Virus record (IMG/VR): IMGVR_UViG_3300037297_000135
Coordinates: 32,001 to 96,000 of that record
Reading direction: 5' to 3' (one strand)
Length of the DNA: 64,000 nucleotides
Source: a virus
Each line of letters opens with the position of its first letter. The first letter of the stretch is position 1. Below, in pieces: positions 4,677 to 19,400 of this stretch. The notes below the pieces were generated by a model that did no database searches, had not been told where the DNA came from, and saw nothing but the letters and a program-made list of their open reading frames with translations. Position numbers and translations under genes: made by a program.

Positions 4677-4698
4677 TATTAAATTAAATAGGGGAGAA

Positions 4699-4956: not shown

Positions 4957-4959
4957 AAA

Positions 4960-5559: not shown

Positions 5560-5562
5560 AAA

Positions 5563-5835: not shown

Positions 5836-5837
5836 AT

Positions 5838-6851: not shown

Positions 6852-6856
6852 ATCAA

Positions 6857-6952
6857 ATGGAATATATTTTTTATTTAATTGATGGATTTATAATAGGTAG
6901 CATTTTAAGAATTATTTTAAGAATAATTGCATCAAAATATGAGGGAAATTAA
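6857..6952 (+). CDS. Small hydrophobic peptide (31 aa)
   Basis: Translated by eye: MEYIFYLIDGFIIGSILRIILRIIASKYEGN; abuts the next ORF. Confidence 0.4.
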   Translation: MEYIFYLIDGFIIGSILRIILRIIASKYEGN

Positions 6953-7132
6953 ATGATAATTTCAAAAATTTTAGCTTTATTGATTGGTATGATTATTGTA
7001 TGTATAATTTTAAATTTTATATTTATATTGTTTTTAGGAATTTGTAAATATATAGATTTAATGAGTTGTTTATTTGAATTTATGTTTAAAAAAAATATAA
7101 TTGGATTTAAATATAAAAATAAAGACAAATAA
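6953..7132 (+). CDS. Small membrane protein (59 aa)
   Basis: Translated by eye: MIISKILALLIGMIIVCIILNFIFILFLGICK...; GAGGG RBS, translationally coupled. Confidence 0.45.
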   Translation: MIISKILALLIGMIIVCIILNFIFILFLGICKYIDLMSCLFEFMFKKNIIGFKYKNKDK

Positions 7133-7163
7133 TTTTAATTATTTTAAAGGGGAGTAAAAAAAT

Positions 7164-7916
7164 ATGATACAAATTCTTTGGGCGACTGCAAGGCCTAAAA
7201 TGTTCATTCAAAGACATAAAAATTGGATGAAAAATGCAAGCAAAAAGCATTTTATTCATACATTAGTTGCTGTAAACACAATTGATGAAAAAGACGAAAT
7301 ATTATTGAATTATGATGAAATATCACAAAGGTTACAAGATTATCAAGTAAAAGTAAAAGTAACAGGTGATGAAAATTTAGGTGTTGTTTATCCAATTTAT
7401 GAGCTTTCAAAAGATTTGAAATTGAATGATAAAGATATTGTGATTGTGGTTTGTGATGATGTTGAATGTCCTGAAAATTGGGATGAATATTTAGTTGATG
7501 AATTTAAACTATGGAATGGGGCTTTAATGATTCGTGATGGATATCAACATTATGAATATGATATATCTAAAATGATTTCAAAAAAAATCATACCACCTGC
7601 TGTTTCAATGCCTGTAATGACATTTAAATGTTTAAAGAAATTGAATATGATTATATTTCATCCAGATTATAAACATTATTTTGCGGATAATGAATTGTTT
7701 TTGAATTTGTATGAACTTGGATTGTTGAAAGATGATAGAAATTCAGATAGTGTGATTTTCGAACATATTCATTATTGTACTGGAAAAAGAGCAAGTGATA
7801 AATTGGATGATAAAATCATAGGTTTGGGAAATCAAGATAGAGGAATGTATTTTAAAAGAATAAATTTAGCTGTTCAAGATAGAATAAAATTAAATAGTTT
7901 TGGAGAAAACAAATGA
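7164..7916 (+). CDS. GT-A fold glycosyltransferase (GT2-like)
   Basis: IVIVVCDD DxD-like motif, HYFADNEL, FEHIHY motifs. Confidence 0.7.
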   Translation: MIQILWATARPKMFIQRHKNWMKNASKKHFIHTLVAVNTIDEKDEILLNYDEISQRLQDYQVKVKVTGDENLGVVYPIYELSKDLKLNDKDIVIVVCDDVECPENWDEYLVDEFKLWNGALMIRDGYQHYEYDISKMISKKIIPPAVSMPVMTFKCLKKLNMIIFHPDYKHYFADNELFLNLYELGLLKDDRNSDSVIFEHIHYCTGKRASDKLDDKIIGLGNQDRGMYFKRINLAVQDRIKLNSFGENK

Positions 7917-8230
7917 GATATGTTAAGTTAGGAATACTTTCATATTCAAATGAAAAAGAATACATTGGAAACATTTTGAAAATTGATAATGAAAATTTTA
8001 AATTAATTTGTAATAAAATGAATAAAAATTTGATTAAAGATTTTAAAAAATGTAAAAATGAATTTATATATGCTTTAGAAAAAAAATATGATAAAATAAA
8101 TGATAAACATGATATAAAAGTAATTATATGCTATAATTATTTTAATAAATGGGAATTTGAATTAATCACAAATATTAGAAATTGTAAAAGTGATTTATTT
8201 AAAGTTGATAAAGATTATATTTTAGCTTAG
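7913..8230 (+). CDS. Hypothetical protein
   Basis: 105-aa ORF, ATGA overlap with the upstream gene. Confidence 0.6.
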   Translation: MRYVKLGILSYSNEKEYIGNILKIDNENFKLICNKMNKNLIKDFKKCKNEFIYALEKKYDKINDKHDIKVIICYNYFNKWEFELITNIRNCKSDLFKVDKDYILA

Positions 8231-8234
8231 GAGA

Positions 8235-10154
8235 TTGTTTATGGATGTTGTATTATGTCAATTTGGGAATATGATAGGCGATAATGTTTATTTGCCATAT
8301 TCTATAGGTTGTATTGTGTCTTATTGCAAGCCCAAAACAAAAGATATAAATTATAAGATGTTGTATATTAAAAAGGATATAAACACCATTTTGGACGAAA
8401 TAGGTACACCTGATGTGCTTGCAATGAGTTCATATATATGGAATCATCAATACAATCTCAGAATTGCAAAACTAATCAATATAAAAAACCCTCAAACAAC
8501 AATCATTTTTGGAGGGCATGAGATAAATGGATTTGATAAAGATATATTTCAAAAATATCCATTTATTGATTTTGTTGTGAATGGTGAAGGTGAATATACA
8601 TTTTATAAAATACTTCAATCATTAAAAGGCGAAAATCATTTTTTTTACAACCATACAATTAATATGGGTGGTTCAGCAATGATATTGAAACAAAAAAATG
8701 ATTTTATAGATATAAATGATATACCAAGTCCATATTTAACAGATATATTTGATGATATAATGAAAGAAAAATATAATTTTACAGCATCACTTGAAACAAA
8801 TAGAGGTTGTCCATATCAGTGTTATTATTGTGATTGGGGCAATCATAAGGTAACAAATAAAAAAATGAGATTGTTTAATGAAGACCGTGTAAATGCTGAA
8901 ATAGAATGGTTTGGGAAAAATAAAATAGATTTTGTTTTTGGTTGTGATAGTAATTATGGTTTTTATGGCAAAAGAGATATGAAGTTTATAGATGAAATAA
9001 TTGAAACAAAAAAGACATATGGATTTCCAAATAAATTTCGTGTTTGTTATACTAAAAATAGTGATGAAACAATTTTCAAAATGAATAAAAAATTAAATGA
9101 GTTCAATCTTTCGAAAGGGGCAACAATATCATTTCAAAGTTTTAATAAACAAACATTAAAAGCTGTTAAAAGAAAAAATATGGGTATACAAGATTTTCAA
9201 AAATATATATTAATGTATAACAAAGAAAATATTCCAGTATATACAGAATTAATATTAGGTCTTCCAGAAGAAACATATGAATCATTTAAAGAAGGATTTA
9301 ATATTTTATTAAATAATATGCAACATAGTAATATTGTTGTATATTATTGTCAGGTATTAGAAAATAGTAAATTAAATGAAAAAGAATATAAAGAAAAATA
9401 TGATATAAAAATATCAAAGATTCCAATGTATGCTACACATACAAAATTTGAAAAAGACCAGATATTTGAATATGAAAACATTGTTGTAAAAACAGAAAAA
9501 ATGTTTAGAACTGATTGGGTTTGGTCTTGTATGTTTAGTTGGAGTGTTCAAACATTTCATTGTTTGGGTTTAACTCAATATATAGCTATACATTTAAAAT
9601 ATGTATATGGAATTGAATACAAAGATTTTTATACTAATTTAATATATTTAGAATTTAATAATAGTATTAATTTAATAAAAAATGAATATTTTAAAGTTAT
9701 GCATATATTTAATCAGGTTGCAGTTGAAAAAGGAAGTTTTAAATATATAGTAGATGATATAAATTGGCCGATTGAAGAAGGAAGTTTTCTTCATTTTATA
9801 GATAATTTTGATTTGTTTTATTTAGAAATTGTGGAATTTTTATTTAAAAAATATCCTGAAATCGCAAAAAATAAAGAAATAACTGAATTGATAAATTTTA
9901 ACAAATATATGTTATGTAAATATAATGACAAAATTTTTCATATGAAGATGAATTATTCATTTGTAGATATATTTGAAAAATATTTTGAAACTGGAAAATA
10001 TGAATTTGAAGAATGTAAAAATAGAACATATTATCCAGCAACAAAAAAATATAAAAATTTTAAAGATTTTGCTATAAATGTAGTTTGGTATGGTCGTAAA
10101 GGTGGAAAAACATTTAAGAATTTAAATGATATTAAAGTAGAGTATATTAAATGA
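8235..10154 (+). CDS. Cobalamin-binding radical SAM enzyme
   Basis: N-terminal B12-binding-like domain (YLPYSIG, SSYIWN, IIFGGHE, NGEGE); ETNRGCPYQCYYCDWG CxxxCxxC motif; ELILGLPEET. Confidence 0.9.
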   Translation: MFMDVVLCQFGNMIGDNVYLPYSIGCIVSYCKPKTKDINYKMLYIKKDINTILDEIGTPDVLAMSSYIWNHQYNLRIAKLINIKNPQTTIIFGGHEINGFDKDIFQKYPFIDFVVNGEGEYTFYKILQSLKGENHFFYNHTINMGGSAMILKQKNDFIDINDIPSPYLTDIFDDIMKEKYNFTASLETNRGCPYQCYYCDWGNHKVTNKKMRLFNEDRVNAEIEWFGKNKIDFVFGCDSNYGFYGKRDMKFIDEIIETKKTYGFPNKFRVCYTKNSDETIFKMNKKLNEFNLSKGATISFQSFNKQTLKAVKRKNMGIQDFQKYILMYNKENIPVYTELILGLPEETYESFKEGFNILLNNMQHSNIVVYYCQVLENSKLNEKEYKEKYDIKISKIPMYATHTKFEKDQIFEYENIVVKTEKMFRTDWVWSCMFSWSVQTFHCLGLTQYIAIHLKYVYGIEYKDFYTNLIYLEFNNSINLIKNEYFKVMHIFNQVAVEKGSFKYIVDDINWPIEEGSFLHFIDNFDLFYLEIVEFLFKKYPEIAKNKEITELINFNKYMLCKYNDKIFHMKMNYSFVDIFEKYFETGKYEFEECKNRTYYPATKKYKNFKDFAINVVWYGRKGGKTFKNLNDIKVEYIK

Positions 10155-10462
10155 TTATTGATGAAACTAAATTTTTTGATAAAAATAATATAAAGATAAA
10201 AGAATTTGATATAGTAAAATGTTATCCACATAAAAATGATACAGACCACAATATAGAAATAGGTATAGTTTTAAAAACTAAAGAAAATGGATGTTTTGAA
10301 TATATTTATAGATTAAATACACTTTGGTATGGTAAAAATAGATTGTCAAGTTATTCATATGGGAAATGGAGTTATACTTTATTTGATTTTGATAATAAAA
10401 TAGATTCAAAATATGTTGAAGTAATTGGTAATGCTTTATTAAATGATATAGATGATTTTTAG
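10151..10462 (+). CDS. YopX-like phage protein
   Basis: FFDKNNIKIKEFDIV ... VEVIGN C-terminal pattern. Confidence 0.55.
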   Translation: MIIDETKFFDKNNIKIKEFDIVKCYPHKNDTDHNIEIGIVLKTKENGCFEYIYRLNTLWYGKNRLSSYSYGKWSYTLFDFDNKIDSKYVEVIGNALLNDIDDF

Positions 10463-10474
10463 GAGGATATAAAG

Positions 10475-11695
10475 ATGTTTGAATATGATGTTTGTGTTGT
10501 AGGTTTGGGAAGAGTTGGTTTACCTTTGGCATTAGCTTTTGATAATGCAGGTTTGAAGGTTTTTGGAATTGATTTGAATGAAAAAATATTAAAAAGTATA
10601 GAACATAAAGAAATGCCTTTTAAAGAAAAAGGATGTCAAGAATTGTTAGAGAAATCAAATTTGACTGTATCAAATGAATATGATGAAAATGTATTTAAAT
10701 GTGAAAACATTGTGATTTGTATAGGAACTCCGATTTTGAAAAATCGAGAAATTGATTTTTCATATTTAAAAAATGTTTTAGACAGCTTGATTCCATATAT
10801 ACAAATTGACCAAAATATTATTTTACGAAGTACAGTTAAACCATTATTAAGCGAAAGAATAAAAGAGTATATTGAATCAGAAAAAAATATGAAGTGTGGT
10901 TACGATTTTTATTTCAGTTTTTGTCCTGAAAGATTAGCTGAAGGCAAAGCATTAGAAGAAATTCAAAATTTGCCACAAATTATAGGTTGTGAAGATGATA
11001 AATCTTTTTATAAATCATCAATTTTATTCAGTAAAATTGTAAAAAAGGAAAGTTTGAAAACAACCTTATTAAATGCTGAACTTTCAAAAGTGTTTTTAAA
11101 TATGAGCAGATATGCTTATTTTGGGATAGTTAATTATTTAACTATTTTAGCTGATACATATAATTCAAATATACATGAAATATTGGAAATATCAAACAAC
11201 AATTATCCTAGACCAATTTTATTTGGACCAGGATTAACAGCTGGAACATGTTTAGTTAAGGATTGGAGAATGCCTGATGCTGATACGATGTATAGCAGTT
11301 TCTTTGAAACAATTGATTCAATCAATCAAAATATTATACAATATTTTTTACCAGATATTGAATCTTGTGTGATAAAAGATGAGTCAATTGGTATTTTAGG
11401 TTATACATTCAAAGCGAATTCAGATGATACAAGAGATTCTATTGTTCCGAATATCATAAGATATTTTGAAAACAGATTTTATAAAAAAATTATGATTCAT
11501 GATTCAAATGTAAACATTGAAGATGTACCTGAAGAACATTGTAAATACTTTAAATCATTTGATGAAGTTAAAAAAGCAGATGTTTTGATTATAGCTGTAA
11601 ATCATGATGAATATAAAAATCATATATATTCAAATGAAGTTGTTTTTGACATTTGGAATATAACTAAAAAAAATAAAATAATTCAATATAATTAG
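10475..11695 (+). CDS. UDP-glucose/GDP-mannose dehydrogenase family NDP-sugar dehydrogenase
   Basis: VVGLGRVG Rossmann motif, ICIGTP, ILRSTV, FCPERLAEG, GTCLVKD with catalytic Cys, LGYTFKANSDDTRDS. Confidence 0.92.
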   Translation: MFEYDVCVVGLGRVGLPLALAFDNAGLKVFGIDLNEKILKSIEHKEMPFKEKGCQELLEKSNLTVSNEYDENVFKCENIVICIGTPILKNREIDFSYLKNVLDSLIPYIQIDQNIILRSTVKPLLSERIKEYIESEKNMKCGYDFYFSFCPERLAEGKALEEIQNLPQIIGCEDDKSFYKSSILFSKIVKKESLKTTLLNAELSKVFLNMSRYAYFGIVNYLTILADTYNSNIHEILEISNNNYPRPILFGPGLTAGTCLVKDWRMPDADTMYSSFFETIDSINQNIIQYFLPDIESCVIKDESIGILGYTFKANSDDTRDSIVPNIIRYFENRFYKKIMIHDSNVNIEDVPEEHCKYFKSFDEVKKADVLIIAVNHDEYKNHIYSNEVVFDIWNITKKNKIIQYN

Positions 11696-11712
11696 TAAGG
11701 ATTAATAATAAA

Positions 11713-11985
11713 ATGGTTGTTACGTGTATTGTTAGTATTTTTGAATACGAAGATTTCGAAATAATTTATTGTTTAATTGATGACGAAACTTATGAACTTG
11801 ATATTGATATTGCAATTGGAGATATGATTGATGATGGTTTGTTGTACCCTGATAAAAAATATTGTATAATATTTGATATAGATTATGAAAAAAGTGATTG
11901 GTATGATGATTGGGATATTGTTTTAAATCTAAATCATTTTTTTGAAATTGAATCATTTGAGGAGATTGAAGATGAAGAATTTTGA
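11713..11985 (+). CDS. Acidic hypothetical protein
   Basis: 90 aa, very D/E-rich; AAGGA RBS. Confidence 0.65.
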   Translation: MVVTCIVSIFEYEDFEIIYCLIDDETYELDIDIAIGDMIDDGLLYPDKKYCIIFDIDYEKSDWYDDWDIVLNLNHFFEIESFEEIEDEEF

Positions 11986-12445
11986 AATTGAACATCAAGG
12001 AAAAAAATATTGGGTTTCAAGAAGTTGTGCGGTAAGTGCTTTTGTTAAAGGATTTGATAAAAATGGTGATGAATATGTACTTGCGATAACAAGAGGAAAA
12101 GCTTCACCAGATAATATAGGTAAAAAATGTGTACCATGTGGTTATTTAGATGGAGATGAAACATTATTAGATTGTGTTGTAAGAGAAGTATTTGAAGAAA
12201 CAGGGCTTAAAATTAATAAAGATAAATTTGAATATATAGAATTTAGTGATGATTTAAGCAACAATTATCAAAATATTTCATTTAGATATAAGACTGTAAT
12301 ATTAAGTATTGAAAAGAATATTCCATATATTACAAATATTGAAGAAAATGAAGTTGATGAAGTTAAATGGATAAAACTTGATGATATTGAAAAATATGAT
12401 TGGGCTTTTAATCATTTAGAATTAATAAAAACATATATTTGTTAA
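11942..12445 (+). CDS. Nudix hydrolase (likely start ATG 11972)
   Basis: PCGYLDGDETLLDCVVREVFEETGL Nudix box; WAFNH C-terminal motif. Confidence 0.88.
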   Translation: MKLNHLRRLKMKNFEIEHQGKKYWVSRSCAVSAFVKGFDKNGDEYVLAITRGKASPDNIGKKCVPCGYLDGDETLLDCVVREVFEETGLKINKDKFEYIEFSDDLSNNYQNISFRYKTVILSIEKNIPYITNIEENEVDEVKWIKLDDIEKYDWAFNHLELIKTYIC

Positions 12446-12451
12446 TCATAT

Positions 12452-12526
12452 AGGGGTATAGCTTAATTGGCTTAAAGCGACAGTCTCCAAAACTGTTAGA
12501 TGTCGGTTCGAATCCGACTACCTTTG
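12452..12526 (+). tRNA. tRNA-Trp(CCA)
   Basis: AGGGGTA/TACCTTT acceptor, ACAGT-CTCCAAA-ACTGT, GTCGG-TTCGAAT-CCGAC. Confidence 0.93.
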
Positions 12527-12552
12527 TTCAAATAAAAAAAAGAGGTATTTAA

Positions 12553-12798
12553 ATGAATAATAAATTTGTTTTTGAATGTCCTGAATGCAAGGGGAAAAGC
12601 AAAATTGATTTAACAAGAGAAGAAATTATAAAAACATATATTGGTTCAACAACAGATTGTAGTTATTGTAATGCTTTGTTGCAGATTAGTGAAGATTTAA
12701 CCGTTATAAATTTTGGTAAAAAACTTCAAAAAGCATATGAAAAAATGGGATGCAAATGTACAATTGAAGAAGCAAAAAATAGTTTTATTGAATTTTAA
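12553..12798 (+). CDS. Zinc-ribbon hypothetical protein
   Basis: CPEC...CSYC; GAGG RBS. Confidence 0.7.
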   Translation: MNNKFVFECPECKGKSKIDLTREEIIKTYIGSTTDCSYCNALLQISEDLTVINFGKKLQKAYEKMGCKCTIEEAKNSFIEF

Positions 12799-12802
12799 AT
12801 TT

Positions 12803-12873
12803 GGCGGATTACTCTAGTGGCAGGAGAACCGACTTTCTATCGGTTAACAACAGTTCGATTCTGTTATCCGTCA
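12803..12873 (+). tRNA. tRNA-Glu(UUC), atypical U37
   Basis: GGCGGAT/ATCCGTC acceptor, ACCGA-CTTTCTA-TCGGT, AACAG-TTCGATT-CTGTT. Confidence 0.8.
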
Positions 12874-12877
12874 TTTT

Positions 12878-12951
12878 GGGTCTTTAACTCAGATGGTTAG
12901 AGTGTTCGGTTCATACCCGAATTGTCAGAGGTTCAAGTCCTCTAAGACCTA
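12878..12951 (+). tRNA. tRNA with CAU anticodon (elongator Met or Ile2)
   Basis: GGGTCTT/AAGACCT acceptor, TTCGG-TTCATAC-CCGAA, AGAGG-TTCAAGT-CCTCT. Confidence 0.9.
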
Positions 12952-12963
12952 TTTATACATACA

Positions 12964-13036
12964 GGACATTTAGCTCATTTGGTAGAGCATTCGGCTTTTA
13001 ATCGAAGGGTGCAGGGTTCAAATCCCTGAATGTCCA
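12964..13036 (+). tRNA. tRNA-Lys(UUU)
   Basis: GGACATT/AATGTCC acceptor, TTCGG-CTTTTAA-TCGAA, CAGGG-TTCAAAT-CCCTG. Confidence 0.95.
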
Positions 13037-13048
13037 TTTTGATTGTAG

Positions 13049-13252
13049 GTGAATAAAATGAGATATACAAAAAAGTTATTAGATAAAAGAATATGTGATG
13101 TTGAAAAAAATTGTGATATCACTAAAACTTATAGAGAATGGCTTGAAGATTTAAGTGAACAAATAATTGGTATAAAATTGAATTTTGATTCAATGAATGA
13201 TGATGAATTAAATAATGCAGTTGATGAATTGATTTGGCTTTCATACAAATAA
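13049..13252 (+). CDS. Hypothetical protein
   Basis: 67-aa ORF between tRNA genes. Confidence 0.6.
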   Translation: MNKMRYTKKLLDKRICDVEKNCDITKTYREWLEDLSEQIIGIKLNFDSMNDDELNNAVDELIWLSYK

Positions 13253-13325
13253 GTTGAAGTAGCTCAGTTGGTAGAGCATCGGACTGAAAATCCGAGTGTC
13301 AATGGTTCAATTCCATTCTTCAACA
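13253..13325 (+). tRNA. tRNA-Phe(GAA)
   Basis: GTTGAAG/CTTCAAC acceptor, TCGGA-CTGAAAA-TCCGA, AATGG-TTCAATT-CCATT. Confidence 0.95.
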
Positions 13326-13330
13326 TTTTT

Positions 13331-13444
13331 GCCCCTGTCTGGCGACGTGAAGAATAATTGGTATATTAATGGTTTCAGTATACGTACGGTGCTGTAAGTT
13401 AATATATGGCAAATTCGAGTAACAGTTCGATTCTGTTCGGGGTA
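13331..13444 (+). ncRNA. Atypical tRNA-like RNA (acceptor-like stem + T arm, no D stem, long central hairpin)
   Basis: GCCCC (13331-35) pairs with GGGGT (13439-43); T arm AACAG-TTCGATT-CTGTT; GTATATTAAT/GTTAATATAT 10-bp stem enclosing CAGTAT/GTGCTG. Confidence 0.6.
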
Positions 13445-13464
13445 ATAAATTAATTTAATAAAGG

Positions 13465-13704
13465 ATGATTGAAATTAATATTGAAAATGAAATAAAATTA
13501 TTAATTGAAAAATGCAAAAGAAGAAGAAAAGAACTTGGATTAAGTCAAAGACAAGTTGGAGAAAAAATCGGAAAACATAAAAATGTTATTGAATCAATTG
13601 AAAATTTTAGACATACTCCCAATATAGGTTTGTTTATTTTATATGCTAATGCTTTAGATTTAGAAATAATAATTTCTAAAAAACAATATACAATATTAAA
13701 TTAA
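13465..13704 (+). CDS. XRE-family HTH transcriptional regulator
   Basis: RRKELGLSQRQVGEKIG...IESIENFRHTPNIGLFILYANAL. Confidence 0.88.
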   Translation: MIEINIENEIKLLIEKCKRRRKELGLSQRQVGEKIGKHKNVIESIENFRHTPNIGLFILYANALDLEIIISKKQYTILN

Positions 13705-13715
13705 AAAACAAATAT

Positions 13716-13786
13716 GCGTATGTAATTTAACGGTAGAATATTAGATTACCAATCTAATTGTGAGAGTTCGATTCTCTTCATACGCT
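13716..13786 (+). tRNA. tRNA-Gly with rare ACC anticodon
   Basis: GCGTATG/CATACGC acceptor with T73 (Gly identity), TTAGA-TTACCAA-TCTAA (ACC at 13748-50), GAGAG-TTCGATT-CTCTT. Confidence 0.85.
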
Positions 13787-13798
13787 TTTTTTTATTGT

Positions 13799-13892
13799 TT
13801 TGTATACGCTTGTTTCTAGCGTTTTTATTTATGTAAAACGATACTTTGTTCGATTAAAAAAAACTGTGAAGCTACAAACGAGTCTATACAAA
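13799..13892. repeat. 94-bp imperfect palindromic dispersed repeat, copy A
   Basis: Ends TTTGTATA...TATACAAA; 79/94 ungapped identity (counted by hand) to the reverse complement of 49188-49281. Confidence 0.9.
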
Positions 13893-14003
13893 AAACACCT
13901 TTCAAACTATCTAATTCACTGGGTTTAAACAATATAGACAAACCCTGATAAACACAGGGATTGATTAAATGTATATAATTTTATATGAATAGGGGATAAA
14001 AAA

Positions 14004-14981
14004 ATGAAAATTTTAATTACGGGAGCTTATGGATTTATAGGTTTTCATTTAGCGAATTTTTTATATTCAAAAGGACATCAAATTTGTTTAATTGACAATT
14101 TTTTCAAAAATCAAGATACTGAAGAAGCACATATAATGTATGAAGAATTTGTTTATGACAAAAACATTTGTAGTTTTGATTTAGATTTGACTGATTTTTC
14201 AAATGTTGATTGGGCTTTAACTGAAAAAGAATTTGATATTGTATTTCATTTAGCTGCAATTAATGGAACAGAAAATTTTTATAGAAGGCCAACAAAGATA
14301 ATTGAAAACAATTTTTTAGCTACAATGAATGTTTTAAAAAATATAAAGTGTAAAAAATTTGTGTTTACATCTAGTTGTGAAGCTTATGCAAGCACAGTAA
14401 ATCAAAATATATGTGATATACCAACAAATGAAAAAGTTTTGTTAAGTGTTGAAGATATAATGAATCCTAGATGGAGTTATGGAGGAACAAAGATTTTAGA
14501 AGAATTGTATGTAAAAAACTATTGTACTGAAAACAATATAGATTTTTTAATTTTAAGGTATCATAATATATATGGTATCAGAGATTCACTAAAACATGTT
14601 ATACCAGCATTGTTTAAAAGATGTTTTAGCGAAGAAGATTTTGTGAATATTTATGGAAATTGCACAAGGTCTTTTTTATATATTAAAGATTGTATTGAAT
14701 ATACAATGAGATTGGCAGAATCAAAACATTGCAAAAATGATATATATAATGTTGGAATGCAAGAAGAAGTTTCAATTAAAGAAGTTGTACAAAATATATT
14801 GAGTATATTTAATGTTAATAAGTTGATAAAAATATATGATAAACCAGAAGGTTCGGTTTTAAGAAGATGTCCTGATATGCAAAAAACTATAAATGCAACT
14901 GGATTTAAACCAAAATATAATTTGTATACTGGTTTAAATGAAATGGCTTGGTATTATGAGAAAAAAGGTATTGTGATATAA
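14004..14981 (+). CDS. NAD-dependent NDP-sugar epimerase/dehydratase or decarboxylase (extended SDR)
   Basis: ITGAYGFIG, FHLAA, FTSSCEAY, NPRWSYGGTK (YxxxK), RYHNIYG, RSFLYIKD. Confidence 0.92.
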   Translation: MKILITGAYGFIGFHLANFLYSKGHQICLIDNFFKNQDTEEAHIMYEEFVYDKNICSFDLDLTDFSNVDWALTEKEFDIVFHLAAINGTENFYRRPTKIIENNFLATMNVLKNIKCKKFVFTSSCEAYASTVNQNICDIPTNEKVLLSVEDIMNPRWSYGGTKILEELYVKNYCTENNIDFLILRYHNIYGIRDSLKHVIPALFKRCFSEEDFVNIYGNCTRSFLYIKDCIEYTMRLAESKHCKNDIYNVGMQEEVSIKEVVQNILSIFNVNKLIKIYDKPEGSVLRRCPDMQKTINATGFKPKYNLYTGLNEMAWYYEKKGIVI

Positions 14982-15008
14982 TATACATATATTTTAAAGA
15001 TTGGAGAG

Positions 15009-15488
15009 ATGTTAATGTATGTATTGTTAACACCAAAAGGAAAGTGGAAAATAAATGAACAAGGTGAAAAAATAAAATGGATTCATTTAAAAGGATATAT
15101 AGAAAATCCTCAAGAATATATGTTAAAAGCATATTTCAAAGAAAACTATAAAGATATAATTCAAAATTTAAGAGTAATAAATATAGCTCATAAAGTAAAA
15201 TGTGAAGTAATGTATAAAAATAGTGGATATGATATATATGTACTAAAAACAAATAATAAATATTTTGTTTATTCAGATAGGTATAATGAATTAAAAATAT
15301 ATTGTAATGTATATATGATGAAAGAAATATCAAAAAAAATATTAAAAGAAATAAAAGAAAAAAAAATAAGGCTTGATAATCGAGATTTCAAATTATTGAA
15401 AAAAATACAAGAAGTTAAAAATATTAAAGAATTAAAACAAATAGAAATTAAAAAATTTTTAACATTAAAAGAAACCTATATTATATAG
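15009..15488 (+). CDS. Hypothetical basic protein
   Basis: 159-aa ORF with GGAG RBS. Confidence 0.6.
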   Translation: MLMYVLLTPKGKWKINEQGEKIKWIHLKGYIENPQEYMLKAYFKENYKDIIQNLRVINIAHKVKCEVMYKNSGYDIYVLKTNNKYFVYSDRYNELKIYCNVYMMKEISKKILKEIKEKKIRLDNRDFKLLKKIQEVKNIKELKQIEIKKFLTLKETYII

Positions 15489-15501
15489 GTTTCTTTTATA
15501 T

Positions 15502-16338
15502 ATGAGCAAAACAGAAGAATGTTTTAATATTATTATATTATTTATTTTATTTATTGTAAATAGGGGAGTGAAAAAATTGAATATACCAGAATGGGATAAT
15601 AGAATTTCACCATTGCATTTTAAAAGTGAAATGTTTATTGATTATATTTCACAAATCAAATTATGCATTAAAGAAAAAGCACCGTATTCATGGATTCGTA
15701 TAGGTGATGGAGAAGAGAATGTTTTAGGTCAAGATTATATTTATCCATCAAATAACGTAAGAGCACATGTAAGTTGGTGGAATAATTCAAATTATTGTGG
15801 AACAACATTACCTAATTTAGAATTGCGTGATAGAATGATTGAAGCATATAAAGGTTCAGAAGCAGTAGGATTATTTATTGAACAAAATAGTGTTACAATA
15901 AAAATTTTCAATAAAATAGGGATTCAGCCAAGGCAAATTTTTTATGGATATGATAATGTACATTTGCCTATGAATCCAATATTTGTTAGAATGTTATGTG
16001 AGAATAAAATTTTAGTAGTTGGAGGTGGAAATAGAAATGGACGGAATGGAGAATATTTTGTAAAAAAAATAAAAGAAAAATTGGATATTGATATTGATTT
16101 TGTAAATGGTATAAAATCATATATTGATATTGAAAATTGTATGAATCAAATAAGGAAAAAAGAATTTGATATTGCTTTAGTGTGTGCTGGTGTAAATGCT
16201 AAGGTAATATGTTGGGAGTTGTCCAGAGAAATGAATAAAGTATTTATGGATTTTGGACATGCTTTTGACAATGCTTTTTATGAAGATGAAAAAGGAAATT
16301 ATAAAGATTATTTTTTACTTGACAAAACAATGATATAA
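15502..16338 (+). CDS. GT-D fold-like glycosyltransferase (likely start TTG 15577)
   Basis: WIRIGDGE motif, ALVCAGVNAK, MDFGHAFD; GGGGAG RBS at 15563. Confidence 0.75.
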   Translation: MSKTEECFNIIILFILFIVNRGVKKLNIPEWDNRISPLHFKSEMFIDYISQIKLCIKEKAPYSWIRIGDGEENVLGQDYIYPSNNVRAHVSWWNNSNYCGTTLPNLELRDRMIEAYKGSEAVGLFIEQNSVTIKIFNKIGIQPRQIFYGYDNVHLPMNPIFVRMLCENKILVVGGGNRNGRNGEYFVKKIKEKLDIDIDFVNGIKSYIDIENCMNQIRKKEFDIALVCAGVNAKVICWELSREMNKVFMDFGHAFDNAFYEDEKGNYKDYFLLDKTMI

Positions 16339-16400
16339 TATTAAAATAAATATGTAAAGTCGATATAGGATGTTTTTTCTTAAGTTATTTTCAAATAGGT

Positions 16401-16437
16401 AAAAAAAAAGATTTGTGAATCACAAGTCTTTTTTTTT
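16401..16437. terminator. Bidirectional-type intrinsic terminator insulating the Ro60-like operon
   Basis: A9-GATTTGTG-AAT-CACAAGTC-T9. Confidence 0.8.
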
Positions 16438-16439
16438 AT

Positions 16440-16468
16440 TTGACATATAAATTAATTAATGATATTAT
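16440..16468 (+). promoter_or_regulatory. SigA-type promoter with extended -10 driving the tRNA-mimic array
   Basis: TTGACA-17 nt-TATTAT, with TG at the extended -10 position. Confidence 0.8.
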
Positions 16469-16487
16469 AATTAAAAGAAACAAACTT

Positions 16488-16588
16488 AATGTGATTTTAG
16501 AACTAATAGCTCAATTGTTAGAGCATTAGAATTTTAATCTAAAGGTTAAGGGTTAAAATCCCTTTTTGTTCAACGATAGAATTGCATT
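16488..16588 (+). ncRNA. tRNA-mimic unit 1 (Lys(UUU)-like cloverleaf inside a conserved outer helix; Y-RNA-like)
   Basis: Cloverleaf 16500-16572 (GCTC/GAGC D stem, TTAGA-ATTTTAA-TCTAA, AAGGG-TTAAAAT-CCCTT); outer stem AATGTGATTT/GAATTGCATT. Confidence 0.8.
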
Positions 16589-16636
16589 TTCATTGTTTCT
16601 TTTTCTTAAATAAAAATTTTTAAAAGATAAAAACTT

Positions 16637-16748
16637 TATGTGATTTCAGAATATTAAAATAGCTCAATTGGTAGAGCACAATAATGTGGATATTGATGTT
16701 GTGGGTTCAATTCCTACTTTTAAACAAAAATTCAATTGCAATCGCATA
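16637..16748 (+). ncRNA. tRNA-mimic unit 2 (His(GUG)-like cloverleaf inside a conserved outer helix; Y-RNA-like)
   Basis: Cloverleaf 16653-16725 (CAATA-ATGTGGA-TATTG, GTGGG-TTCAATT-CCTAC, all-AT acceptor); outer TGTGATT/AATTGCA, alternatively TATGTGATT/AATCGCATA. Confidence 0.8.
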
Positions 16749-16786
16749 TGCATTTTATCTTTTATTTAAATATATAATTAGAAACT

Positions 16787-16912
16787 GAGTGTGATTTCAG
16801 AATATTTTTATAGGTTCAAATCCTATTCCCCGCTTAAATATGCGGGGATGGTGCAATTGGTAGACACACTTGAATATAAATCAAGCAAATTAAAATTAAT
16901 AAAATTGCACTC
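16787..16912 (+). ncRNA. tRNA-mimic unit 3: circularly permuted Leu-type tRNA domain inside a conserved outer helix (YrlA-like)
   Basis: Order T arm (ATAGG-TTCAAAT-CCTAT), acceptor hairpin TCCCCGC-TTAAATAT-GCGGGGA, D arm TG-GTGCAATTGGTAGACAC, anticodon arm CTTGA-ATATAAA-TCAAG; outer GAGTGTGATTT/AAATTGCACTC 11 bp. Confidence 0.85.
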
Positions 16913-16939
16913 TTATTCTAATTTTTTAAGGATGGTTTT

Positions 16940-18445
16940 ATGGAAAAATTTAATTTTGATGCAAGTATTCTTCAATTCACGCCAAAAGGGTCATATTACA
17001 ATACTGAATCTGAACAAAATCAAAAAATAACAGAGCAATGGAAAGAGTTTTTGCAATATGATAGATTGCTTTTTGCATTGATTTTGTTTTTACCAACTTC
17101 AGATTATGCTTTTGGAAGAATAAGTCATTTGTTATGTAAAAATAAAACTACTGAGATAGTTTCTAAAGATTTTAAAATAACTAATGATTTTGAAGAGAAA
17201 ATAATATTGAATGGTTTAAGAAAACAACCAATGCCAAGAGCACTAAAGAATCTTTTAATGTTTACAAATGCAAACATTGGAAGAGTGAATAATGCTAAAG
17301 TTCGAAATATAATATTGAAATATATATTTCAAAGGGATTTAAATTCATTGGATTCAATGTGTTGTAATTTTAAAGATAAAATAAAATTGCTTTTGAAACA
17401 TGTATATGGTAAAAAGATTTGGAGGGTTTTAAATGGGAGAAATTTATTTGGTATAACAAATGTGCATGAAAGAGCATTAGATGTTTTGAAGTTTTGTTTC
17501 AACAAATCTTTTGATACAAAAGATTTAAATATGATGAATGCATATATATGTTTAAGAGAATATGCAAAAGAAAATAGATTGGATTCATTTTTAGATTTAG
17601 CTAAAAAATCAAAAATGAACATTGAAATTTTGATAGGCTTTAAAGCTTTATATAAATTAAATATTGATTTAAGTGAAATATATGATGCTGGAAATATGAG
17701 TGAAAAACAAAAGATACAAAAGGTAAGAGCAGTTGAAAGAACTGGAACTAAACAAGATATAAATTATAAAAATTATGATATATATGATTTGTATAAGATG
17801 TTTTATGTAAAATTAACAAACAATGAAACAAATGATATGGATTTGATTGCTGAAGCAATTGAATTTCAATCAAATAAAAAAATGGATATTGATTTAGGTG
17901 AAATTGTAGTGATTATGGATGCAAGTAAATCTATGATTGGTTCCGAAACAAGACCATATCATCCATTTTTAACAGGATTGAGTTTAGTAAGTAAGTTGCC
18001 AAATGTAAAAGATGTAATGTTTGTTGGTGGTGAATATGTTGATACATATTCAAATAATATGCCAAAAGCAATTGTACCAAGTGGAGCAACAAAAATTTGG
18101 GAATCTTTAATTCAAGCTGTAAATAAATATCCTGATACAATTGTTTTGATATCTGATGGTTATGAAAACAATGTAAAAGGATTAACAAATCAAATATATG
18201 AAAAATTAAAAAAAGAAGGTAAAGAATTTAATATTATACATATAAATCCTGTTTTTGCTGCTGAAACAGGAAATGCAAGAAGATTGATAAAAGAAATAAA
18301 ACCATTTATAATTGAAAATTATAGAATGATTAAAACAAATCTTATATTTCAACTTATAATGGATAACAAAGAATTAGCAATCAAGATGTTGTTTAATGAA
18401 TATAAAAAATTAGAAGTTAAAGAATTGAAAAGGTTAAAAGGGTGA
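16940..18445 (+). CDS. TROVE/Ro60-like protein: alpha-helical N-terminal region + C-terminal vWA domain
   Basis: vWA MIDAS elements VVIMDASKSM, T in GATKIWESL, IVLISDGYEN; helical N-terminus with GSYYNT and RVNNAKVRNII; directly downstream of tRNA-mimic RNAs. The TROVE call rests on architecture and context. Confidence 0.6.
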   Translation: MEKFNFDASILQFTPKGSYYNTESEQNQKITEQWKEFLQYDRLLFALILFLPTSDYAFGRISHLLCKNKTTEIVSKDFKITNDFEEKIILNGLRKQPMPRALKNLLMFTNANIGRVNNAKVRNIILKYIFQRDLNSLDSMCCNFKDKIKLLLKHVYGKKIWRVLNGRNLFGITNVHERALDVLKFCFNKSFDTKDLNMMNAYICLREYAKENRLDSFLDLAKKSKMNIEILIGFKALYKLNIDLSEIYDAGNMSEKQKIQKVRAVERTGTKQDINYKNYDIYDLYKMFYVKLTNNETNDMDLIAEAIEFQSNKKMDIDLGEIVVIMDASKSMIGSETRPYHPFLTGLSLVSKLPNVKDVMFVGGEYVDTYSNNMPKAIVPSGATKIWESLIQAVNKYPDTIVLISDGYENNVKGLTNQIYEKLKKEGKEFNIIHINPVFAAETGNARRLIKEIKPFIIENYRMIKTNLIFQLIMDNKELAIKMLFNEYKKLEVKELKRLKG

Positions 18446-18449
18446 TGAA

Positions 18450-19400
18450 ATGGATATTTTGAGTAAATTAGGTTTTAAAAATATAGAATATGATGAAATG
18501 CAAATTGTAGACGAAATGAGTATGATTCCTCTTTTATCAGATGGTTTAAGTAAAAACATTTCATCACCTGAAAATATACAATTTTTTGAAGTTGGAACTT
18601 ATGGTTCAATGGAGTTTAAAAATGCAGATAGCAATACCAACAACTATGGGATTGTGCCATCAAATACAATGATTTTAAACAACAAGGTACAAGTTCAAGA
18701 CCATGCAATGATTGAAGCAGGTGTTGTAAAAGCAGGTACATATAAAAATTTTAGTAATGCGTGTTGTGTTCAAGAAAAACAACATGGATTTTTAAATGGT
18801 ACGAATAAAAATAATGAATATGATATTTTGCCTTTGGGTTTAAGAAGGGCAGCAACAAGAGAAAAATTAAGACAGGATTGCAATTGTGGTAAACTTTGGC
18901 CTGCAATCAGAGAATGGTTAAAAGGTTTTAATTTTATGGAAAGTTATGCTCATTTAGAATATTTTTTTACTCCATTCAAAAAACAATTAGATGATTTTGT
19001 TGCAGAATTTGAACCAGTTAAAAATCAAATAGGAGCAATAATTCTATTTGGCAATATGTTAGCAGGCATAGAAATTATGCCTACAATTGAACATTGGAAT
19101 CATTATTGGAAATGGTTGGTTCGAGGATGTTATGGAGCTGAATTGTTAAAAATACGTGAAATTGGACAAATCGAATTGAAATCAATTTCAATACCAGAAA
19201 TGCCTTTTGACTCAATAAATAATTATTTAAATATGTTAAAAGATACAATTTTAAATAGTTTGAACTTAAACTTTAATGAATTGGGAAGTAAAAACTATGG
19301 TGAAAATCAATTAAAACATAAACTAATAAAAATTGAATCTGGTGGTGGAGATTTGATTTTAGAAAACAATAAACCAATATATTTAAGTTGTGTTTTGTGA
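18450..19400 (+). CDS. DUF6569/ARPP-1-like protein
   Basis: MIPLL near the N-terminus, KVQVQDHAM, NACCVQEKQHG (compare xCVEQGRW consensus), QIGAIILFG-N-MLAGIEI, YWKWLVRGCY; recognised from memory. Confidence 0.5.
   Translation: MDILSKLGFKNIEYDEMQIVDEMSMIPLLSDGLSKNISSPENIQFFEVGTYGSMEFKNADSNTNNYGIVPSNTMILNNKVQVQDHAMIEAGVVKAGTYKNFSNACCVQEKQHGFLNGTNKNNEYDILPLGLRRAATREKLRQDCNCGKLWPAIREWLKGFNFMESYAHLEYFFTPFKKQLDDFVAEFEPVKNQIGAIILFGNMLAGIEIMPTIEHWNHYWKWLVRGCYGAELLKIREIGQIELKSISIPEMPFDSINNYLNMLKDTILNSLNLNFNELGSKNYGENQLKHKLIKIESGGGDLILENNKPIYLSCVL

What the first reader, a model, noticed from the sequence alone, without database searches (positions are those of the whole stretch)
16488..16748. Lys- and His-like cloverleaves that look deliberately non-translational
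Seen: units 1 and 2 keep perfect D stems (GCTC/GAGC), 5-bp anticodon stems and T stems. They have weak acceptor stems (a T-T mismatch in unit 1; all A-T with a terminal A-A mismatch in unit 2) and no CCA, and unit 1 has T loop TTAAAAT instead of TTCRA. All three units have A at anticodon-loop position 32 (ATTTTAA, ATGTGGA, ATATAAA), where tRNAs normally have a pyrimidine. A normal tRNA-Lys(UUU) is encoded separately at 12964. Known: tRNA-Lys(UUU) is the target of PrrC and of the PARIS effector AriB. Inference: these are shape mimics or decoys rather than decoding tRNAs, and the shared A32 is a selected feature.
Basis: partly seen in the sequence, partly recalled or inferred. Interest (0 to 1): 0.7.

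Follow-up and report, generated by a model that had tools for sequence, protein, structure and literature searches.

The report
tRNA look-alike RNAs beside phage Ro60
The two "tRNA-Lys" and "tRNA-His" genes are most likely not decoding tRNAs but the tRNA-shaped heads of small Y-RNA-like RNAs that partner a hidden Ro60-type ring protein encoded just downstream, a variant of the Ro60/Y-RNA particle that recurs in over a hundred uncultured phages.

Summary
Both cloverleaves exist (Rfam tRNA 69.5 and 53.9 bits), with weak acceptor stems and A32. All 13 other tRNAs of this 130-kb, 24% GC phage have a pyrimidine at 32. "No CCA" is uninformative, because no tRNA gene here encodes CCA.

Context decides the reading. 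Units 1 and 2, plus a circularly permuted third unit, each sit inside the same closing "handle": outer helix, ACUU internal loop, inner helix UGUGAUU/AAUYGCA, and UUYAGA junction. They follow one promoter and precede a 501-aa ORF whose model matches only Ro60/Rsr full-length (Z 13.5-16.5), then an ARPP-1-like ORF.

This RNA array + Ro60-like + ARPP-1-like module recurs widely: 215 non-redundant handle units in 67 loci, with strong covariation. In relatives:
- Near-identical cloverleaf bodies carry different "anticodons", including UUA where TAA is the main stop.
- A34 occurs in 32%.
- A32 occurs in 53-74%, against 8% in ordinary tRNAs.
- U33 and R37 are kept.

So "non-decoding mimic" is supported. 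"Decoy for PrrC/AriB" is untested. A32 is enriched but not invariant. An opposing point is that 22 of 34 relatives encode CCA.

Earlier notes of this scan report similar Ro60-like/handle-RNA systems on at least 13 other genomes. I rate it a new variant of a known kind.

The parts
16400..16438 (.). Hairpin (19-nt arms, 95% complementary, A-run/T-run flanks) that closes the upstream transcription unit
   Evidence: the repeat finder I19; sequence
16440..16468 (+). Sigma-70-type promoter TTGACA-17-TATTAT with TG before the -10; presumed start of the RNA array / Ro60-like operon
   Evidence: 11 of 12 matches; consensus match only, not shown to be active
16473..16499 (+). Unit 1 handle, 5' side: outer helix 16473-16483, internal loop ACTT 16484-16487, inner helix 16488-16499 (AATGTGATTTTA)
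   Evidence: RNAduplex mapping; z = -5.6 against shuffles
16500..16572 (+). Unit 1 cloverleaf, Lys-like (UUU). Loop AUUUUAA (A32), U.U at 5:68, A73, U19:A56 elbow, no CCA
16577..16603 (+). Unit 1 handle, 3' side: inner helix 16577-16588 (TAGAATTGCATT), loop 16589-16592, outer helix 16593-16603
   Evidence: the repeat finder I4
16621..16652 (+). Unit 2 handle, 5' side: outer helix 16621-16632, loop ACTT 16633-16636, inner helix 16637-16645 (TATGTGATT), junction TCAGAAT
   Evidence: z = -6.0
16653..16725 (+). Unit 2 cloverleaf, His-like (GUG). Loop AUGUGGA (A32), A1.A72, all-A/U acceptor, C73 but U at -1 (no G-1)
16737..16764 (+). Unit 2 handle, 3' side: inner helix 16740-16748 (AATCGCATA; AATTGCA at 16733-16739 is an alternative register), loop 16749-16752, outer helix 16753-16764
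   Evidence: the repeat finder I5
16776..16923 (+). Unit 3, same handle: outer 16776-16783/16916-23, ACT loop, inner 16787-97/16902-12. Permuted core 16810-85: T arm, 7-bp GC acceptor capped TTAAATAT, 3-bp D stem, AUAUAAA arm. Handle replaces variable arm.
   Evidence: ARAGORN calls tRNA-Tyr(AUA) only on the doubled module
16940..18445 (+). 501-aa Ro60-like protein: helical TROVE-like ring plus vWA domain with MIDAS D327-x-S329-x-S331
   Evidence: AF2 pLDDT 87. Foldseek top 12 hits all Ro60/Rsr/TROVE. VIA Z 13.5-16.5 over about 400 residues, next vWA-only hits Z <= 9.9. No Pfam TROVE hit
18450..19400 (+). 316-aa ARPP-1-like (PF20208) protein; starts 4 nt after the Ro60-like stop
   Evidence: Pfam E = 3e-15. 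Same position in 99 of 107 related loci. Confident model with no informative PDB match

Best explanation
Units 1 and 2, with the permuted unit 3, are three Y-RNA-like noncoding RNAs, not decoding tRNAs.

Anatomy. Each RNA has two parts:
- A conserved closing handle formed by its 5' and 3' ends: an outer helix of 8-12 bp, an internal loop carrying (G/A)ACUU, an inner helix UGURAUU/AAUYRCA, and a UUYAGA junction.
- A tRNA-shaped head.

Inferred mechanism.
- The array is transcribed from the promoter at 16440, probably on one transcript with the two genes that follow.
- The handle is the binding site of the Ro60-like ring protein (16940-18445).
- The head imitates tRNA (L-shape elbow, U-turn anticodon loop) so that the particle engages some tRNA-recognising host or phage factor. 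Known Y RNAs tether or gate Ro60 in this way, for example towards PNPase.
- The three 'anticodon' letters carry no codon meaning.

Shown: the structures, their covariation, the synteny, the Ro60 fold, and the lack of constraint on the anticodon.
Inferred: RNA-protein binding, processing, and the identity of the factor engaged.
For: 1. Shared handle. The exact motif TGTGATTTYAGAA occurs only at the three units in 64 kb. Long leader/trailer helices surround each unit and are absent from the 13 ordinary tRNAs.

2. Ro60 fold of the downstream ORF, with an intact MIDAS motif.

3. Recurrence.
- Close loci whose upstream sequence was read all show an array of handle units upstream on the same strand.
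- There are 215 non-redundant canonical units in 67 loci, with a median of 4 per array.
- An ARPP-1-like gene lies directly downstream in 99 of 107 loci.
- The handle persists from 24% GC phages to GC-rich Myxococcota loci.

4. Covariation.
- Cognate leader/trailer duplexes average -18.4 kcal/mol against -7.7 for non-cognate pairs.
- On 27 clamped cloverleaves, 97.5% of cells are paired against 79.5% when shuffled (0 of 500 shuffles reach it) and about 40% when slid.
- 25 of 28 pairs show changes on both sides.

5. Heads are interchangeable: full cloverleaves 31, acceptor-less D+AC+T cores 44, short modules 85, permuted ones including a YrlA-type order in L164.

6. No decoding constraint.
- L151 and L152 differ at 1 of 49 body sites but read UUA and UAU.
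- L119 and L161 differ at 5 of 49 body sites but read AUG and UGA.
- Positions 34-36 are the fastest region, at 0.57 per site, against 0.30 for the linker.
- UUA heads sit in loci where TAA is the main stop.
- A34 is found in 11/34 clamped against 7/118 ordinary tRNAs; nonsense anticodons in 6/34 against 2/118.

7. The loop frame is kept: U33 in 27/27, R37 in 27/27, A38 in 21/27. Unit 1 keeps the elbow through U19:A56.

8. Unit 2 lacks G-1.

9. Precedent in papers.
- YrlA Y RNAs mimic tRNA and lie next to Ro60 (PMC4201824).
- Thermus phage phiLo has two Y-like RNAs upstream of its Ro60, and these bind PNPase (PMC12135203).
- Listeria phage CKA15 has three abundant ncRNAs upstream of an Rsr-like gene (PMC12282133).
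- For phage Bas63 it was suggested that some annotated tRNA genes are Y RNAs of its Ro60-like gp130 (PMC11482910).
Against: - No RNA data: neither the ends of the transcripts nor their binding to the protein are shown.
- Unit 1 is a high-scoring tRNA (69.5 bits, third best of 12 in the window) with the LysRS identity set (UUU, A73), so charging cannot be excluded.
- 22 of 34 clamped relatives encode N73-CCA followed by AAA(C) (alignment). This looks like selection for a mature-tRNA-type 3' end, and could mean the heads are released or charged.
- Sequence models do not recognise the family: Pfam TROVE gives no hit on the protein, Rfam Y_RNA/YrlA gives no hit on the RNAs, and the YrlA motif GNCGAAN0-1G is absent.
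- The unit detector used a motif regex, so conservation of ACT and of the junction is partly built in. It also has a background of 82 hits in 219 kb of control sequence, against 321 in 160 kb upstream.
Confidence: 0.75

Rival explanations
1. Decoy or bait for tRNA-targeting defence nucleases. The handle-held cloverleaves present anticodon loops that soak up, inhibit or report host anticodon nucleases such as PrrC-, AriB-, colicin E5- or retron-type effectors. The hypervariable triplet reflects an arms race.
For: - Positions 34-36 change faster than any other region, including the presumably free linker (0.57 against 0.30 per site), while U33, R37 and A38 are kept.
- The three heads in this window are Lys(UUU), His(GUG) and Tyr-like (AUA). 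These isoacceptor classes are hit by known nucleases: PrrC and AriB for Lys (PMC12409363, PMC11464382) and colicin E5 for His and Tyr (my own knowledge).
- The authors of the AriB study consider it possible that overexpressed viral tRNAs act as AriB inhibitors (PMC12409363).
- The Ro60-like gp130 of Bas63 counters a defence system (PMC11482910).
Against: - No nuclease or defence gene is linked to the module here.
- The composition at positions 34-36 (T > A > G, with C rare) is what neutral drift in AT-rich genomes would also give.
- 85 of 215 units carry only short modules of 45 nt or less, with no tRNA-like core.
- The 17 close pairs used for the rates are few and not independent.
Confidence: 0.2
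2. Genuine decoding phage tRNAs (a second tRNA-Lys and the only tRNA-His). Their complementary leader and trailer are just a processing signal, for instance for RNase III, and A32 makes them resistant to host anticodon nucleases, as described for other phage tRNAs.
For: - Both units pass the Rfam tRNA gathering score by a wide margin.
- U33 and R37 are present, and unit 1 keeps the elbow pair and has the Lys identity elements.
- The phage has no other tRNA-His.
- CCA is encoded in 22 of 34 relatives.
- Phage tRNAs with altered anticodon loops or stems that escape nucleases are documented (PMC10264068, PMC12409363).
Against: - Orthologous units switch anticodon freely, and some read UUA where TAA terminates genes.
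- A34 is found in a third of them.
- Unit 2 lacks G-1 and has an A.A at 1:72.
- The same handle encloses a permuted tRNA with a capped acceptor (unit 3), acceptor-less cores and short modules without a tRNA-like core.
- The units are strictly linked to a Ro60-like gene, while the 13 ordinary tRNAs have no such flanks.
Confidence: 0.1
3. Decaying duplicates of tRNA genes, or a repeat or mobile element with terminal inverted repeats, without function.
For: - Weak acceptor stems.
- Unit 1 is 79% identical over 66 nt to the ordinary tRNA-Lys.
- Tandem arrangement with about 150-nt spacing.
Against: - Compensatory changes maintain all helices across 27 to 215 units.
- The elbow pair is kept through a double change in unit 1.
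- The position before the Ro60-like gene is conserved over wide phylogenetic and GC ranges.
- The outer helices differ in sequence between units, unlike copies of one mobile element.
Confidence: 0.02

Closest known systems
Bacterial and phage YrlA-type Y RNAs with Ro60/Rsr (Chen et al. 2014, PMC4201824; Rfam YrlA)
   Same: - Small RNAs encoded next to, and on the same strand as, a Ro60-fold gene.
- The 5' and 3' ends form a long stem with an internal loop.
- The distal module mimics tRNA.
- Unit 3 has the T arm, capped acceptor, D arm order of YrlA, and a perfect 7-bp acceptor like the RNase P-cleaved M. smegmatis YrlA.
   Different: - No Rfam hit, even at E <= 10, and no GNCGAAN0-1G motif.
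- A different conserved handle: GACUU loop, UGUAAU helix, UUCAGA junction.
- Units 1 and 2 are complete, unpermuted cloverleaves with a full anticodon arm, joined to the stem through the acceptor end.
- Arrays reach up to 6 detected units with interchangeable heads.
- The protein is not detected by Pfam TROVE.
- There is a constant ARPP-1-like partner gene.
Thermus phage phiLo Ro60 with Yrl1/Yrl2 (PMC12135203; PDB 9KOP, 9L5Y)
   Same: - A phage Ro60 homologue preceded by Y-like RNA genes.
- 9KOP is the best VIA match of the model: Z = 16.5, 403 residues aligned, rmsd 5.0.
   Different: - About 12% sequence identity.
- The phiLo RNAs were identified by the CGAA-bulge motif and are described as stem-bulge-stem Y RNAs; the passages I read do not describe them as cloverleaves.
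- Those passages mention no ARPP-1-like partner.
Nuclease-resistant phage tRNAs (T5 tRNA-Lys against PARIS AriB, PMC11464382 and PMC12409363; anticodon-loop variants, PMC10264068)
   Same: - A phage-encoded extra tRNA-Lys(UUU)-like gene beside an ordinary one.
- An altered anticodon loop.
   Different: - Those are charged, decoding tRNAs without a closing handle or a Ro60 partner.
- T5 resistance maps to positions 39 and 41, not 32.
- Here the anticodon is not conserved among orthologues.
Earlier notes of this scan: handle-tagged tRNA mimics beside Ro60-like genes in other phages (e1-5972937, e1-3416712, e1-5459201 and others)
   Same: The same logic is reported on at least 13 other genomes (AI notes, unchecked by me): a Ro60-fold protein plus an array of small RNAs that share a closing handle and carry tRNA parts, one of them with UUA in the anticodon position.
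   Different: - Those notes describe an ACAGCAA/CAGC-box handle, whereas here the junction reads UUYAGA after a UGUGAUU helix.
- I did not test whether the two handles are homologous.

Membership tests
Canonical decoding tRNA | Cloverleaf that scores above the Rfam tRNA gathering threshold | tested here: met
   69.5 and 53.9 bits against a threshold of 29
Canonical decoding tRNA | Anticodon conserved among orthologues and meaningful in the genome's genetic code | tested here: not met
   Orthologous clamped units switch triplets at 0.57 per site against 0.13 for the body. UUA heads occur where TAA is the main stop. A34 is found in 11 of 34
Canonical decoding tRNA | Pyrimidine at position 32, U33, purine at 37 | tested here: inconclusive
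   U33 and R37 are present, but A32 occurs in all three units, against Y32 in the 13 other tRNAs of the genome. A32 is rare in tRNAs but not forbidden
Canonical decoding tRNA | Fully paired 7-bp acceptor; for bacterial tRNA-His, G-1 paired with C73 | tested here: not met
   U.U at 5:68 in unit 1. A.A at 1:72 and U at -1 with C73 in unit 2
Canonical decoding tRNA | Aminoacylation and use on the ribosome | not testable with these tools
   Needs charging assays or tRNA sequencing
Y RNA in the broad sense (Ro60 partner RNA) | Encoded beside a Ro60-fold gene, on the same strand | tested here: met
   The array ends 16 nt before the ORF. The ORF has a full-length Ro60 fold. The arrangement recurs in 67 or more loci
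Y RNA in the broad sense (Ro60 partner RNA) | 5' and 3' ends form a conserved stem with an internal loop or bulge, supported by covariation | tested here: met
Y RNA in the broad sense (Ro60 partner RNA) | Physical binding to the Ro60 protein | not testable with these tools
YrlA family (Rfam YrlA; Chen et al. 2014) | Match to the YrlA covariance model and the GNCGAAN0-1G motif | tested here: not met
   No Y_RNA or YrlA match at E <= 10. There is no CGAA anywhere in 16440-16940, and the motif occurs in 5 of 215 related units
YrlA family (Rfam YrlA; Chen et al. 2014) | tRNA-like domain in the permuted order T arm, capped acceptor, D arm, with the Ro stem in place of the anticodon stem | tested here: not met
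   Units 1 and 2 are unpermuted, with an anticodon arm. Unit 3 is permuted but keeps an anticodon arm, and the stem replaces the variable arm. One relative (L164) has the YrlA order
Ro60 / TROVE protein (for ORF 16940-18445) | HEAT-like helical ring followed by a vWA domain with a MIDAS motif | tested here: met
   The top 10 VIA hits are all Ro60 (Z 13.5-16.5, 396-413 residues aligned, rmsd 4.6-5.2), followed by vWA-only hits at Z <= 9.9. D327, S329 and S331 are invariant
Ro60 / TROVE protein (for ORF 16940-18445) | Recognised by the Pfam TROVE profile or by a sequence-profile search of the PDB | tested here: not met
   No TROVE hit at E <= 0.1. The profile search of PDB gave only a weak vWA hit, E = 1.4

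The most novel reading that the evidence does not exclude
The arrays are libraries of Ro60-held tRNA baits. Each handle presents a tRNA head whose anticodon loop evolves under diversifying selection to capture, inhibit or redirect a particular host tRNA-targeting immune nuclease or other tRNA-reading factor. The Ro60-like ring and its ARPP-1-like partner would dispose of, or repair, what is caught. This would be a general, programmable RNA-based counter-defence of phages, and it would mean that many 'odd tRNA genes' in phage genomes are mis-annotated.
Probability: 0.2. Interest if true: 0.85.

Novelty: new variant of a known kind. Interest (0 to 1): 0.62.

Why it matters
- Annotation. tRNA finders annotate these units as tRNA-Lys, tRNA-His or suppressor tRNAs. 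Counting them as decoders distorts analyses of phage tRNA content, codon compensation and stop-codon recoding.
- An expanded system. The module (array of handle RNAs + cryptic Ro60 + ARPP-1-like protein) widens the Ro60/Y-RNA system to a large, so far wholly uncultured phage clade, and to some Myxococcota and other genomes.
- A new kind of head. The tRNA-mimic head can be a complete cloverleaf whose anticodon is free to vary.
- A route to function. What the tRNA-like domain of bacterial Y RNAs is for has been open since 2014. These arrays offer natural variants (full, acceptor-less, permuted, hairpin-only heads on one handle) with which to test it.

Tried and rejected
- blastn of the array against 50,697 phage records gave no match. 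tblastn of the Ro60-like protein gave one uncultured phage at 23% identity. No cultured relative is therefore at hand.
- An exact scan of viral contigs for the 14-mer TGTGATTTCAGAAT gave more than 116 single hits with no repetition per contig. I took these as chance matches and did not use them.
- Rfam at E <= 10 over 16380-16960 found only the two tRNA hits and noise, with no Y_RNA or YrlA.
- Pfam, NCBIfam and PHROGs gave nothing for the 501-aa ORF. A profile search of PDB sequences gave only a marginal vWA hit.
- The ARPP-1-like model (pLDDT 92) had no Foldseek hit at E <= 0.001, and VIA-wide Z <= 5.5 on small sub-structures only. Its fold and role stay open.
- RtcB, RNA_ligase (PF09414) and PolyA_pol/CCA-adding enzyme (PF01743) are absent from the phage genome, which CheckV rates 100% complete. 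The T4 Rnl1 search rang in no control genome, so it says nothing.
- My first two loose regex detectors of units were too permissive and were discarded. The stricter detector still has a background of 82 hits in 219 kb.
- I considered and set aside the idea that the handle is a bulge-helix-bulge site for circularising a permuted pre-tRNA, as in red-algal nuclear genes. The same handle encloses unpermuted cloverleaves and short modules without a tRNA-like core, and I did not look for a splicing endonuclease. This was not formally tested.
- I rejected the readings of an att-site remnant or tandem-duplication debris for unit 3. Its flanks are in register with units 1 and 2, and its helices are intact.
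Full report
**What is there**

The window lies in a single-contig virus record of 130,483 bp and 24% GC, rated 100% complete by CheckV.

ARAGORN and Rfam both call tRNA-Lys(UUU) at 16500-16572 (69.5 bits) and tRNA-His(GUG) at 16653-16725 (53.9 bits).
- GCTC/GAGC D stems.
- 5-bp anticodon and T stems.
- U.U at 5:68 in unit 1.
- An all-A/U acceptor with A1.A72 in unit 2.
- T loop UUAAAAU in unit 1.
- A at position 32 in both units.

Three qualifications follow from comparing all 15 tRNA genes of the genome:
- None of them encodes CCA, so its absence here means nothing.
- All 13 others have C or U at position 32, so A32 is a real peculiarity of this array.
- Unit 2 has C73 but U at -1, so it lacks the G-1:C73 pair that defines bacterial tRNA-His.

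In unit 1 the unusual A56 is matched by U19 in the D loop. The elbow pair is kept by a double change, which shows that the tRNA shape is under selection.

**The units are not free-standing genes**

A motif, TGTGATTTYAGAA, occurs exactly three times in 64 kb, once before each of three units spaced about 150 nt apart. Each unit is enclosed by long complementary flanks (repeat finder I4, I5, I9; RNAfold).

Mapped precisely, every unit has the same layout:
- An outer helix of 8-12 bp.
- A small internal loop whose 5' side reads ACU(U).
- An inner helix of 9-12 bp built on UGUGAUU/AAUYGCA.
- A UUYAGA junction.

Leader/trailer pairing is 4 to 6 standard deviations better than shuffled sequence for the three units, and unremarkable for the 13 ordinary tRNAs.

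The third unit (16776-16923) is a circularly permuted tRNA:
- It runs T arm, 3' acceptor strand, 8-nt cap, 5' acceptor strand (a perfect 7-bp GC-rich stem), D arm with a 3-bp stem, then an anticodon arm with loop AUAUAAA.
- The handle sits where a long variable arm would be.
- ARAGORN recognises it as tRNA-Tyr(AUA) only when the module is doubled.

A consensus sigma-70 promoter (16440-16468) follows a strong hairpin (16400-16438). No terminator-like site separates the array from the next ORF.

**The neighbour is a cryptic Ro60**

The ORF at 16940-18445 (501 aa) has no Pfam, NCBIfam or PHROG match. It belongs to a large family of about 505-aa hypothetical proteins from metagenomes (174 hits).

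An AlphaFold model built on 30 homologues has pLDDT 87. Its best 12 Foldseek hits are all Ro60/Rsr/TROVE structures, aligned over the full length. With VIA-align the ten Ro60 entries score Z 13.5-16.5 over about 400 residues, well above the next hits, which cover the vWA domain only (Z <= 9.9). The MIDAS motif DxSxS is invariant.

The next ORF starts 4 nt later and matches Pfam ARPP-1 (E = 3e-15). Its confident model has no informative structural match.

**The module recurs**

Searches with the protein alignment gave 25 viral, 80 metagenomic and 19 genomic loci.
- In the close loci whose upstream sequence was read, the roughly 1 kb upstream of the Ro60-like gene holds an array of small units with the same handle. 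Its consensus is outer helix - GACUU - NN - UGUAAU - UUCAGA - head - AUUACA - loop - outer helix.
- I extracted 215 non-redundant canonical units from 67 loci, with a median of 4 per array.
- The detector has a background: 82 hits in 219 kb of coding control against 321 in 160 kb upstream. It also builds in the ACT and junction letters. The helices, however, are independent evidence.
- Cognate leader/trailer pairs fold at -18.4 kcal/mol on average, against -7.7 for leaders paired with trailers of other units.
- An ARPP-1-like ORF directly follows the Ro60-like gene in 99 of 107 loci with enough sequence.
- The handle, including RACU and UUCAG, is still recognisable before distant homologues (about 25% identity) in GC-rich Myxococcota contigs and the Minicystis rosea chromosome.

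**Structure of the clamped cloverleaves**

I aligned units 1 and 2 with 25 clamped full cloverleaves from other loci (A2).
- RNAalifold recovers the outer helix, inner helix, and the D, anticodon and T arms. 25 of 28 pairs show changes on both sides.
- With the pair-counting tool, 97.5% of cells are paired, against 79.5% in shuffles (0 of 500 reach it) and about 40% when partners are slid. The covariation score is 0.53 against 0.18.

**Do they decode?**

The comparative evidence says no.
- Within A2, U33 is invariant, position 37 is always a purine and A38 is kept in 21 of 27. The three anticodon positions have the highest column entropies of the molecule.
- Among 17 close pairs (body divergence <= 20%), positions 34-36 differ at 0.57 per site. 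This compares with 0.13 in stems, 0.08-0.24 in the other tRNA loops, and 0.30 in the linker between acceptor and handle.
- L151 and L152 differ at 1 of 49 body positions but read UUA and UAU. L119 and L161 differ at 5 of 49 but read AUG and UGA.
- UUA is the commonest triplet among ARAGORN-called clamped heads (6 of 34). In those loci TAA is the main stop codon, and it often terminates the adjacent Ro60-like gene.
- A34, which in bacteria is normally confined to tRNA-Arg(ACG), occurs in 11 of 34 clamped heads against 7 of 118 ordinary tRNAs from the same loci. Several of those 7 are themselves clamped units of distant loci that my detector did not cover.
- The same handle also carries acceptor-less D+anticodon+T cores (44), short modules of 45 nt or less (85), other long modules (53) and permuted heads, one of them (L164) in the classical YrlA order.

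A processing signal for ordinary tRNAs would not be expected to enclose such a range of heads. The simpler reading is that the handle is the constant, protein-binding part and the head is the variable effector part, as in Y RNAs.

**A32**

A32 is enriched but not invariant.
- It occurs in 18 of 34 clamped heads against 10 of 118 ordinary tRNAs (Fisher p = 8e-8).
- It occurs in 20 of 27 sequences in the full-cloverleaf alignment.
- It occurs in only 26 of 74 tRNA-like cores in the wider set, where C32 is commoner.

It does not show what A32 does.

**What speaks the other way**

- Unit 1 is a very good tRNA by score and carries the LysRS identity set (U35, A73).
- 22 of 34 clamped heads in other phages encode N73-CCA, usually followed by AAA(C). 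That is hard to explain unless a mature-type 3' end, or recognition of CCA (for example by RNase P), matters.
- M. smegmatis YrlA is cleaved by RNase P and receives CCA while remaining a Y RNA (PMC4201824), so this is compatible with the Y-RNA reading. It also leaves room for release or charging of the heads.
- There is no expression or binding evidence.

**Comparison with the known**

- YrlA-type Y RNAs are tRNA mimics encoded beside Ro60 in more than 250 bacteria and phages (PMC4201824).
- Thermus phage phiLo has two Y-like RNAs upstream of its Ro60 that bind host PNPase (PMC12135203).
- Three abundant ncRNAs lie upstream of an Rsr-like gene in Listeria phage CKA15 (PMC12282133).
- For phage Bas63 it was suggested that some annotated tRNA genes are Y RNAs of its Ro60-like gp130, which counters a defence system (PMC11482910).

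The present system works like these but is not a member of the YrlA family:
- It has no Rfam match at E <= 10.
- The GNCGAAN0-1G motif is absent.
- The handle is different.
- The heads are complete and unpermuted.
- The units form arrays.
- The protein is invisible to the TROVE profile.
- There is a constant ARPP-1-like partner.

Earlier notes of this scan describe similar handle-RNA/Ro60-like systems on at least 13 other genomes. I did not test whether their ACAGCAA handle is homologous to this one.

**Verdict**

- The interpretation 'non-translational tRNA mimics' is supported by context and comparative evidence, at about 0.75.
- The specific decoy role against PrrC or AriB is an untested sub-hypothesis, at about 0.2. 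Its one piece of support is that the anticodon triplet is the fastest-evolving part of an otherwise conserved RNA, which neutral drift could also explain.
- Ordinary decoding tRNAs remain possible, at about 0.1.

Noticed in passing
window 13331-13443: Unannotated tRNA-like element. A GCCCC...GGGGT closing stem encloses about 100 nt, ending in a T arm (AACAGTTCGATTCTGTT) identical to that of tRNA-Glu at 12849-12865. ARAGORN finds nothing here, whether searching for intron-containing tRNAs, tmRNA or at a relaxed threshold.
   Followed up: partly
window 16319-16438: A promoter-like site (TTGACA-17-TAAAAT, 11 of 12) is followed about 55 nt later by the strong hairpin at 16400-16438. This could be a short independent transcript (small RNA or peptide) just before the array.
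   Followed up: no
window 13716-13786: tRNA-Gly with anticodon ACC (A34) in an otherwise ordinary, unclamped cloverleaf with U32. A34 outside Arg-ACG is unusual.
   Followed up: no
related loci, e.g. L119:2695-2770, L152:2210-2285, L210:605-680: Most clamped cloverleaves of other phages encode N73-CCA followed by AAA(C) before the 3' strand of the handle (22 of 34). The window's units do not. A conserved internal CCA in an RNA that seems not to decode is unexplained.
   Followed up: partly
L164:564-660 (metagenome contig SDBT01099369.1): One handle unit carries a head in the classical YrlA order: T arm, capped acceptor, D arm, with the handle in place of the anticodon stem. It links this family to YrlA-type architecture.
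   Followed up: partly
L224, L225, L227 (Minicystis rosea CP016211.1, about 8.26 Mb), L228: Distant homologues of the Ro60-like gene (about 25% identity) in GC-rich Myxococcota genomes are preceded by long runs of ordinary-looking tRNA genes. The last tRNA-like unit before the gene is held in a very stable handle (-33 to -57 kcal/mol) with the same RACU and UUCAG/UACAG letters.
   Followed up: partly
window 18450-19400: The ARPP-1-like protein gives a confident model (pLDDT 92, mixed beta-sheet and helices) with no informative match among solved structures. [quoted passage not shown]
   Followed up: partly
window 1451-16338: The array is flanked upstream by a run of glycosyltransferase and sugar-nucleotide genes: a GT-D-like ORF at 15502-16338, a nucleotide-sugar epimerase-like ORF at 14004-14981, and a UDP-glucose dehydrogenase-like ORF at 10475-11695. 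Ordinary tRNA genes are interspersed among them.
   Followed up: no
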